Below are positions 6,030-28,458 of a stretch of 64,000 bases of DNA, piece after piece. This DNA comes from Eledone cirrhosa (lineage: Eukaryota). Below the pieces are notes generated by a model. The model saw nothing but the letters and a program-made list of their open reading frames with translations. It did no database searches and was not told the origin of the DNA. The translations under genes were made by a program, and so were the position numbers. Numbering within the stretch: position 1 is the stretch's first letter; the number at the start of each line of letters is the position of its first letter. The DNA lies in contig OZ024755.1 in the NCBI GenBank assembly GCA_964016885.1, forward strand, positions 16,368,001-16,432,000, written 5' to 3'.

Positions 6030-6330
6030 TCACTATTCGTTCCGATTCTCTGCACTCAGAGTTCAAATCCTGCCGAGGTCAACTTTGTCTTTCATCCTTC
6101 CGAGGTCGATAAATAAAGTACCAGTCAAGTACTGGAGACAATTTTCCCTCTATATCTCTTTCTCTCTTTTTCTGTATCAGAAACACACTCCTCTTCTTCT
6201 TCTCTGGAAGAAATCAACTACGTTCAGACCTGGATAAGGAGATGGGCTCTGACAGGTTTCAAATACCCAAGACACTCCGCATGTCACTACGGCCACTCTA
6301 CGACACCATCAGAAATTACAGGTCCATCCA
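6030..6330 (+). mobile_element. Meta-like SINE with distinct long 3' tail
   Basis: B-box gagttcaaatcc, core, pyrimidine tract, then cagacctgga-aggagatgggctc tail; similar copies at 12990, 22645, 31495, 43826. Confidence 0.7.
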
Positions 6331-14964: not shown

Positions 14965-17100
<2,136 letters not shown>

Positions 17101-23787: not shown

Positions 23788-24070
23788 GCTCAAGTTACTC
23801 TCAATCATTTAAACAAGGAGTATATTTTTGACACACTTCCTTTGGAAAGTTTTCTTGTTGTGGTTATTGTTTCTGTTGTTGGTTTACTCCGTTGAATATT
23901 TTGAATATTCTCATATTTTTCTCTTTCCATAATTACTTCCTGTCTATACTGAATTTTGGAGGGCGAGTGGGTGGCGTCAACGTGTGTATGGTTTCTTGAA
24001 GGCAGATGTGTCTGTCTTCAGTCGTTAGAATGAATAAATAACATAGTGTTAGAAACACCATGTTATTTAC

Positions 24071-24126
24071 TCATTCTGATGACTGAAGACAGATACATCT
24101 GCCTTCAAGAAACCACTGGTAAATGA
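24071..24126 (+). ncRNA. Type I hammerhead ribozyme within fold-back 23989-24115
   Basis: TCATT-CTGATGA-ctgaagacagat/atctgccttcaa-GAA-ACCA-c-TGGT-A-AATGA; intact core. Confidence 0.8.
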
Positions 24127-24754
24127 AATAATTATCTTATGTTGTTTATTACATAACTATATATATAAATATATATTTATATATATATATTTATATATAT
24201 ATATTTATATATATTTATATATATATTTATATATATATATTTATATTTATCTATATATTTATATATATATTTATATAAATATATATATATAAATATAAAT
24301 ATATATATAAATATATATATAAATATATATATATAAATATATATAGAAATATATAGAAATATATATAGAAATATATATATATAAATATATATATAAATAT
24401 ATATATAAATATATATATAAATATATATATAAATATATATATAAATATATATATATAATATATATATATAAATAAATATAGATAAATATAAATATATAAT
24501 ATATATATAAATATATATATATAAATATGTAGGAGGTGAGTTTTATTGTAGTACAATAAAGCAATGCAGATATCGGATAAGAAGCACTCTACAGTTTGTA
24601 GGACTGGAGTATACATAATATATAAGATCAAAAGATGGTTAAAGGAGTTCCATGTATTTTATTATGCGCATTTCAAAAACAAACATCATCATCATATGTT
24701 GATTTAAAACTGCACTATCCACAAGTGTTTTTTAGTCTTCATATCATGTCCTCC

Positions 24755-24825
24755 TGTTTTATCTGATGAAAACACAAATATTATTGCATGATGATGTTTG
24801 TTTTTGAAATGCGCATAATAAAATA
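24755..24825 (+). ncRNA. Type I hammerhead ribozyme within inverted repeat 24615-24864
   Basis: tgttttat-CTGATGA-long stem II-GAA-ATGCGCAT-A-ataaaata; intact core, 8-bp stem I, palindromic stem III. Confidence 0.8.
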
Positions 24826-24864
24826 CATGGAACTCCTTTAACCATCTTTTGATCTTATATATTA

Positions 24865-26742
<1,878 letters not shown>

Positions 26743-26757
26743 GTTTTAATATAGATG

Positions 26758-26808
26758 AGATTCTACAGGACTAGAACTGTTTCATTCTTTAGAAATCATC
26801 AAGAATCT
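26758..26808 (-). ncRNA. Family A hammerhead (C3->U)
   Basis: AGATTC-TTGATGA-tttc-taaa-gaat-GAA-ACAG-ttctagtc-CTGT-A-GAATCT; 6-bp stem I. Confidence 0.7.
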
Positions 26809-27219
26809 GGCTTTCCCAAAATAAATGTTGTGGTATTTATATCTCTTCAGGTGGTAGGAGAGGGTGGGGAGTGGGATGGTTGGAGGTCATTGGTTGAAAG
26901 AAAAGGGAATTCATTAAAAGCTAATTCTTTAAGGCTATAATTTATATTTAGAGTGACAAAGGCAGAAAGAATTCTATAAACAAGTTTCTCTTAAGCTAAC
27001 AATGCCTATATTTCAGGTGTCTATAAGATGATTGGGGGTCGGTCATGCTTTATGGATTTAAAGAAAAAGGAAATTCTTTAAAAGCTAATTCTTTAAAGCT
27101 CTAACTAGAGTGACAAAGGCCAAGAGAATTCGATAAACCAGTTCAAGATATTGAGTGCCTATCATATCATTATTGTCATATTTCTCTTAAGCCATATTCC
27201 AGGTGTCAACAGATACATT

Positions 27220-27503
27220 CACACACACACCCACACATATATATACATACACACACACATATATATATATATGTATATATATTTATATATATATATATAT
27301 ACACATACATACATACATATACACATACATACATTCATATATATATGTATATATATACATATATATATACACATACATACATATATATGTATATATATTT
27401 ATATATATATATATATATATACATACATACATACATATACACATACATACATTCATATATATATGTATATATATATATATATATATACACATACATACAT
27501 ATA

Positions 27504-27552
<49 letters not shown>

Positions 27553-27637
27553 AAACATACATATGTATATATGTATATGTATATATATATATATGTGTAT
27601 ATATATATATATGTATATATATGTATATATATATGTG

Positions 27638-27671
<34 letters not shown>

Positions 27672-27831
27672 TATATACACATACATACATACATATATAC
27701 ACATACATATATATACACATACATACATACATATATATATTACACATACATATATATATATACACATACATACACACACACATATATATACACATACATA
27801 TATATATATATATATATACACACATACATAC

Positions 27832-27862
<31 letters not shown>

Positions 27863-27950
27863 CATATATATATACACACATACATATATATATATATATA
27901 CATATATATATACACACATACATACATATAATATATATATATATATACAC

Positions 27951-27995
<45 letters not shown>

Positions 27996-28040
27996 CATAC
28001 ATATATATATATACACATACATACATATATATATATATAC

Positions 28041-28071
<31 letters not shown>

Positions 28072-28318
28072 CACATACATACATACATATATATATACAC
28101 ATACATACATACATATATATATATACACATACATACATATATATATATATACACATACATACATATCTATATATATACACATACATACATATATATATAT
28201 ATACACATACATACATATATATATATATACACACATACATACATATATATATATATACACACATACATACATATATATATATATACACACATACATACAT
28301 ATATATATATATACACAC

Positions 28319-28360
<42 letters not shown>

Positions 28361-28411
28361 CATACATATATATATATACACACACACACACATATCTATA
28401 CACATACATAC

Positions 28412-28458
<47 letters not shown>

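What the first reader, a model, noticed from the sequence alone, without database searches (positions are those of the whole stretch)
24615..24864. Intact hammerhead with palindromic ATGCGCAT stem III in an inverted-repeat island between two giant TA arrays
tgttttat/ataaaata stem I (8 bp), CTGATGA at 24763-24769, long stem II, GAA, ATGCGCAT, cleavage predicted after A24817. The 3' half and tail are duplicated in inverted orientation at 24615-24692, the architecture expected for a PLE insertion with an inverted partial pLTR. One of the best candidates for an active ribozyme.
Basis: partly seen in the sequence, partly recalled or inferred. Interest (0 to 1): 0.75.

Follow-up and report, generated by a model that had tools for sequence, protein, structure and literature searches.

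The report
Head-to-head Penelope stub with hammerhead
The hammerhead motif is real but is a standard part of the end repeat of a very abundant jumping gene and is predicted to be a poor cutter at this site; the more useful result is that the family's copies suggest each insertion is likely built from two DNA copies started on one RNA and joined head to head.

Summary
The type I hammerhead (24755-24825) and a perfect 78-bp inverted repeat are present. The whole 337-bp island is one of about 14,000 insertions of a Hydra-clade Penelope-like element (PLE) in (TA)n. A near-full-length parent with an RT/GIY-YIG ORF carries the same repeat. This copy is a poor ribozyme candidate: stem III needs a dimer, pair 10.1-11.1 is A-U, and in a read-through RNA the inverted arm sequesters it. 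99 of 101 sampled arms run through the cut site. Of interest is the family's record of how it inserts. Copies are a tailed arm and a tail-less arm joined head to head. The arms share haplotypes (730 of 739 sites), the tail-less arm usually reaches further, and about 57% of starts sit at one 5' position, often with an untemplated G. Best reading: two target-primed cDNAs on one RNA, short copies running off a likely capped start. Hydra PLEs, their hammerheads and inverted repeats are published; I did not find this mechanism in print. The scan noted similar stubs in two other genomes.

The parts
24158..24528 (.). left (TA)n target array, 371 bp
24528..24614 (-). PLE tail, about 85 nt (pLTR positions about +173 to +259); its outer end is the inferred first reverse-transcription start site. 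Single copy. In the parent it continues into the ORF leader.
24615..24692 (-). tailed arm: pLTR +95 to +172, 5'-truncated, holds only the 3' half of the hammerhead
24693..24693 (+). junction base C (matches the parent's base at -1, or a slipped triplet; not the untemplated G seen in other copies)
24694..24864 (+). tail-less arm: pLTR +1 to +171; +1 is the family's 5' hot spot (inferred transcription start); the 3' end merges into (TA)n at the inferred second start site
24755..24825 (+). type I hammerhead: stem I 24755-62/24818-25, CTGATGA 24763-69, stem II 24770-24805, GAAA 24806-09, palindrome 24809-16, predicted cut 24817/24818
24856..28446 (.). right TA-rich array, 3.6 kb

Best explanation
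The island is a short head-to-head insertion of the terminal repeat of a Hydra-clade Penelope-like retrotransposon in a TA microsatellite, likely made when both target strands primed reverse transcription on one RNA at two sites about 85 nt apart and the two DNA copies were joined at their far ends. Shown: family, parent ORF, TA target, two fixed 3' ends, head-to-head layout, fixed 5' hot spot. Inferred steps: (1) the GIY-YIG endonuclease nicks both strands of (TA)n; (2) one 3' end primes at the tail end (+259), the other at +172 to +177; (3) the upstream-starting, tail-less cDNA leads and the tailed cDNA follows by displacement, so it is usually shorter; (4) on an RNA that begins at the pLTR promoter both cDNAs can go no further than +1, where the cap is often copied as an extra base; RNAs that read through from upstream give the long copies; (5) the ends are joined by micro-homology. 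The hammerhead rides along uncut; it would cut only as a dimer, perhaps with protein help, and in this copy is predicted to be sequestered.
For: Family: 14,312 exact tail-end matches, control 0. Parent L074 has the repeat twice around an 808-codon open frame with Hydra motifs. Target: TA beyond the tail in 85 of 87 and beyond the tail-less arm in 45 of 46 with that end in view. Layout: 59 of 87 show an adjacent inverted arm in view. Two primings: the tail-less arm reaches further 5' in 37 of 40 unequal pairs (2 complex ones set aside), and 15 of 18 among uncensored short copies, p=0.008 (tally by eye); fold-back copying of a tailed first strand cannot give that. One template: arms agree at 730 of 739 diagnostic sites versus 28% discordance on shuffling; an arm ending at +1 is never paired with one passing upstream (17/0/0/10, p=1e-7); in the 9.6-kb copy L229/L230 both inner pLTRs share an 8-nt indel and a tail variant absent from the outer ones. 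5' end: 14,480 matches at +1, only 6,176 continue upstream. Untemplated base next to +1 is G in 8 of 17 cases, p=0.008 against 19% G (by eye); the parent has C there. Short and long copies share haplotypes. Prior biochemistry: a PLE protein nicks and extends both strands and has two RT starts that define the tail; hammerhead mutants still insert (PMC11167929). Penelope has an internal promoter in its pLTR (PMC2377424).
Against: The sample is the first 43 Mb of one contig, chosen on an exact tail-end match; 28 of 87 had no partner arm parsed or in view, which favours 'tail-less arm longer' among long copies. Arm identity could partly come from conversion after insertion (5 one-copy variants are shared by both arms, 27 are not), and two RNAs from one source locus would also match. 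The genome-wide G count (2,570) does not discriminate, since 5 of 13 ATA micro-homology sites in the other arm also follow a G. The window copy itself has C at -1. In vitro the two start sites showed no strand preference, so pairing of unlike sites is unexplained; 2 sampled copies (L055, L113) show tail sequence on both arms.
Confidence: 0.65

Rival explanations
1. Two primings, but on two RNA molecules held by a protein dimer, usually from the same source locus.
Against: Two free RNAs, each with 5' and 3' pLTR sites, should mix short and long arms; 0 of 27 informative pairs are mixed. Many haplotypes coexist yet arms match.
Confidence: 0.17
2. One cDNA is made, folds back at a micro-palindrome and copies itself; the spacer later flips.
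For: Junctions show micro-homology and many centre on the CATATG palindrome (1,722 pattern hits, each perfect centre counted up to twice); arms are nearly identical.
Against: Needs the tailed arm to be the longer one; it is longer in 3 of 40. Flipping would give at most half. Does not explain kilobase spacers.
Confidence: 0.06
3. +1 is an RT pause or a palindrome-collapse hot spot on long templates, not an RNA 5' end.
For: +1 lies in CATATG beside an imperfect hairpin; long arms pass +1, so templates extending upstream exist.
Against: Untemplated G next to +1; no pair in which one arm stops at +1 while the other passes; 6,176 arms read through unchanged.
Confidence: 0.15
4. The island is an independent non-autonomous retrozyme that spreads through hammerhead-cleaved circular RNA.
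For: Core intact in 66 of 71 copies and all 8 common helix variants keep pairing, so the motif is under selection in source elements. Starts at +125 are somewhat more frequent than at +126 (343 vs 214 hits).
Against: Only 1 exact tail-to-+1 junction in the genome; no tandem monomers seen; 99 of 101 arms cross the cut site; short copies share haplotypes with ORF-bearing ones; inner and outer pLTRs of L229/L230 differ, which a monomer circle cannot give.
Confidence: 0.05

Closest known systems
Hydra clade of C-terminal-endonuclease PLEs (Craig et al. 2021, PMC8557442; section 11, section 15, passages and supplement part 2 read), including Hydra-1_Obim of Octopus bimaculoides
   Same: RW(K/I), DKT, CxCX5C linker, CxxC and CxH around E and N, C-terminal GIY-YIG, canonical hammerhead near the 3' end, (TA)n target; an inverted 5'-truncated copy is noted for Penelope-13_HM.
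   Different: Unit is 3.7 kb (most are under 3 kb), with an Asn-rich insert and a long 3' UTR; hammerhead sequence differs from all listed Hydra motifs (long stem II, A-U at 10.1-11.1, even palindrome); tail about 85 nt versus 30-40 bp; about 14,000 copies.
Poseidon PAc of Anolis (Frangieh et al. 2024, PMC11167929; parts 1-2 of 4 read)
   Same: Two RT start sites bound the tail; AT-rich target; both strands extended; hammerhead not needed for insertion.
   Different: That work is in vitro and does not link the two starts to inverted repeats, to one RNA or to a fixed 5' run-off; here the starts lie upstream of the ORF (ATG at +344).
PLE hammerheads with palindromic helix III (Cervera and de la Pena 2014, PMC4209133; parts 1-2 of 4 read)
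   Same: Type I motif in pLTRs, dimer-dependent, mostly solo; opposite-strand pairs 100-700 bp apart were noted.
   Different: Lacks the unpaired base after A9 and the G10.1-C11.1 pair; activity untested.
Non-LTR retrozymes (bioRxiv 10.64898/2026.07.22.740005; parts 1-2 of 5 read)
   Same: Short non-coding PLE-derived repeat with a type I hammerhead.
   Different: Not tandem; inverted; made from the coding element's own RNA.
L1 twin priming (recalled, no call)
   Same: Two target nicks prime on one RNA, giving an inversion joined by micro-homology.
   Different: In L1 the second primer lands at variable sites and copies a different segment; here both starts are fixed and copy the same segment, giving an inverted duplication in most insertions.

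Membership tests
Type I hammerhead ribozyme | CUGANGA, GAAA, UH core with helices I and II | tested here: met
Type I hammerhead ribozyme | Stable helix III as monomer | tested here: not met
   2 pairs plus GCGC loop; 8-bp intermolecular duplex -10.5 kcal/mol, as in dimer-type motifs
Type I hammerhead ribozyme | Structure kept by variation | tested here: inconclusive
   8 of 8 common variants keep the pair but all are one-sided G-U/WC swaps; no two-sided change
Type I hammerhead ribozyme | Mg2+-dependent self-cleavage | not testable with these tools
   genomic proxy at +125 inconclusive
Penelope-like element | Single ORF with RT and GIY-YIG endonuclease in the parent | tested here: met
   L074, motifs read from translation and alignment; Pfam gave no significant hit; many of 37 homologues carry PF26215
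Penelope-like element | pLTR partial tandems, inverted copy, one-sided tail | tested here: met
Hydra clade | RWK, DKT, CxCX5C, CxxC..E..N..CxH, C-terminal EN | tested here: met
   RWK reads RWI in L074, RWK in 5 of 7 aligned homologues
Hydra clade | (TA)n insertion and canonical hammerhead | tested here: met
Hydra clade | Placement in the RT phylogeny | not tested
   no reference sequences loaded
Neptune clade | CX2-5CxxC linker and CCHH motif | tested here: not met
   linker is CxCX5C; my first label, dropped
Non-LTR retrozyme | Head-to-tail tandem monomers each with a hammerhead | tested here: not met
   1 exact tail-to-+1 junction; none tandem among short copies

The most novel reading that the evidence does not exclude
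These thousands of stubs are a fossil record showing that PLE inverted pLTRs and the one-sided tail arise by obligatory twin priming on a single RNA, and that solo head-to-head pLTRs are 'strong-stop' products ending at the capped transcription start, with the cap copied into DNA. That would answer the stated open question of how PLE inverted structures form, without any need for hammerhead cleavage.
Probability: 0.55. Interest if true: 0.65.

Novelty: new member of a known kind. Interest (0 to 1): 0.45.

Why it matters
The motif itself is ordinary. How PLEs make their tandem and inverted ends is named as unsolved in Craig 2021 and Schostak 2008. This family gives young, abundant copies with three base-precise landmarks (+1, about +175, +259) and an open ORF, so the twin-priming model can be tested by counting in the assembly and in the existing in vitro assay. 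It also gives genomic support that the hammerhead is not cut in most templates.

Tried and rejected
Rfam: no match. Circle of pLTR plus tail: 1 junction only, rejected. First guess that CATATG is the element's end: wrong, the parent continues upstream. Neptune label: rejected. Fold-back model: rejected on arm lengths. Cleavage fossil: starts at +125 versus +126 gave 343 versus 214 hits, with 21 of 30 and 16 of 30 called junctions (3 of the 21 are 3-nt deletions); the neighbouring base is not an independent control and several junctions are micro-homology sites, so inconclusive; the planned count of palindromes centred on stem III was not run. The base after the tail (CATA or CATTA) does not separate short from long copies. 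No RNA holder listed. Contigs of four runs show tail ends followed by TA but cannot show starts or expression. A link between this element and giant TA arrays: not supported; flanks of the 30 top copies are mostly 10-70 bp and other giant arrays in the window have no match to it. over-filtered hits and was replaced; one search crashed and was rerun. Literature searches listed no paper joining twin priming with pLTRs; subscription papers such as Evgen'ev and Arkhipova 2005 and Arkhipova 2006 were not seen and may hold a similar model. Supplements of Frangieh 2024 and the bioRxiv preprint were not read. PMC12602865 and PMC13282606 (passages) had nothing relevant; PMC3846280 parts 1-3 of 5 gave background only.

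Full report
Observation. The motif and the inverted repeat are as described. Three such hammerheads occur in the window and none in 200 shuffles; Rfam misses them. The genome is a 3.0-Gb animal assembly; a cephalopod is inferred from recalled SINE sequence and an Argonauta homologue, not shown.

Family. The whole island 24530-24856, including 85 nt left of the finding, recurs across the genome (743 candidates, 40 scored), and the 30 loci fetched lie in TA repeats. A 20-mer at the outer left end has 14,312 exact matches, control 0. I took the first 100 in genome order; 87 were fetched singly and used for counts, the other 13 were seen only in longer loci. [quoted passage not shown] RW(I/K), DKT, CxCX5C and CxxC/CxH match the Hydra clade as defined by Craig 2021, whose supplement lists an Octopus member and Hydra hammerheads, none with this sequence. 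Numbering from the A at window 24694 as +1: cut after +124, tail-less end +172 to +177, tail end +259, ATG +344.

Anatomy of insertions. Most copies are a sense arm ending at +259 and an inverted arm starting near +177, meeting head to head, with TA outside both (85 of 87; 45 of 46). An adjacent inverted arm was parsed in 59 of 87; the rest run out of view, are interrupted or have one arm. The window copy has the tail-less arm reaching +1 and the tailed arm stopping at +95, the commoner asymmetry.

Two primings. A single cDNA that folds back must have the tailed arm longer or equal. The tail-less arm reaches further in 37 of 40 unequal pairs (2 set aside) and in 15 of 18 short, uncensored pairs (tallied by eye). 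A tail cannot be added to a sense strand copied from a tail-less cDNA, so both arms were likely primed on RNA. This fits the in vitro finding that a PLE protein nicks and extends both strands from two start sites bounding the tail.

One template. In 32 copies with overlapping arms, arms differ at 52 of 4,291 positions, against about 5.7% to other copies, and agree at 730 of 739 diagnostic sites against 28% discordance when shuffled. Arms ending at +1 never pair with arms passing upstream (17, 0, 0, 10). In L229/L230, a 9.6-kb insertion whose arms each exceed one unit, the two inner pLTRs share an indel and a tail variant that the outer ones lack: both arms copied the same linear template in register, and it was not a monomer circle. 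Conversion after insertion or two RNAs from one locus remain possible for the identity, less so for the length classes.

Fixed 5' end. 14,480 matches begin at +1 and 6,176 continue upstream; an 18-mer 24 nt upstream has 5,082 (two subfamilies only). The parent has C at -1, yet where an untemplated base abuts +1 it is G in 8 of 17 cases (by eye), and 11 of the first 30 G loci are untemplated, 5 are one-base centres, 9 are explained by the other arm, 5 are other (by eye). The raw G count of 2,570 (A or T 2,848) is not itself evidence. I infer run-off at a capped start, in line with Penelope's internal pLTR promoter. The window copy has C there. Short and long copies share the same haplotypes, so stubs are by-products of the coding element. 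Long arms that cross a whole unit pass +1 or stop elsewhere (L074, L228, L229, L230, L055, L076), so they need read-through templates.

The ribozyme. The core is intact in 66 of 71 copies and all 8 common helix variants keep pairing, none two-sided. Helix III needs a partner; A-U replaces G10.1-C11.1; the island transcript buries the motif. 99 of 101 arms cross the cut site. Starts at +125 are about 1-2% of arms and only modestly above +126: inconclusive. Its role is likely in tandem transcripts of the parent, not here.

Verdict. New family in a known clade, known motif, known architecture. The mechanistic reading was not found in nine searches of open literature, but older closed papers were not seen. 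Earlier scan notes describe similar stubs elsewhere as ordinary. Interest 0.45.

Noticed in passing
window 19899 and 11817, minus strand (position of CTGATGA): Two more type I hammerheads of another family, with (AT)n palindromic stem III, each ending in TA repeats; relatives occur beside several fetched loci.
   Followed up: partly
L074 3571-5964 minus, residues about 590-660: Asn-rich insert between RT and the CxCX5C linker, absent from 7 aligned homologues; recalls the N-rich inserts of Adineta Penelopes.
   Followed up: no
L229/L230 (G000:C1:54.09-54.10 Mb): About 9.6-kb head-to-head insertion, each arm longer than one unit, 8 differences in 2,515 aligned ORF bases.
   Followed up: yes
L074 pLTRs at 6309 and 2599: The two pLTRs differ at 6 places upstream of the cut site and none from +125 to +259; L228 does not repeat this pattern. 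Unexplained.
   Followed up: partly
L017, L041, L062, L114; L172/173, L183/184, L197: Arms or internal jumps that begin at +124/+125, and three perfect palindromes centred there; possible rare use of cleaved RNA.
   Followed up: partly
L131: About 190 nt of unrelated, partly palindromic sequence captured between the two arms.
   Followed up: no
L144, L145, L153, L154, L163: In one-base centres the G sits on the tail-less arm in all five; L017 is the reverse.
   Followed up: no
window 23964-24125: A near-perfect palindrome of about 160 bp just left of the TA array, containing CTGATGA on the + strand at 24076; not analysed.
   Followed up: no
window 14965-17100, 32825-34153, 37027-40310: Other kilobase TA-rich arrays without this element.
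   Followed up: no
L032-L034 (G000:C19 35.4, 37.1, 38.6 Mb): Three copies with the same flanks: segmental duplication or assembly redundancy, counted as one event.
   Followed up: no
L074 7069-9225 minus: The parent copy's 5' end abuts helicase-like frames resembling a Helitron (label recalled).
   Followed up: no
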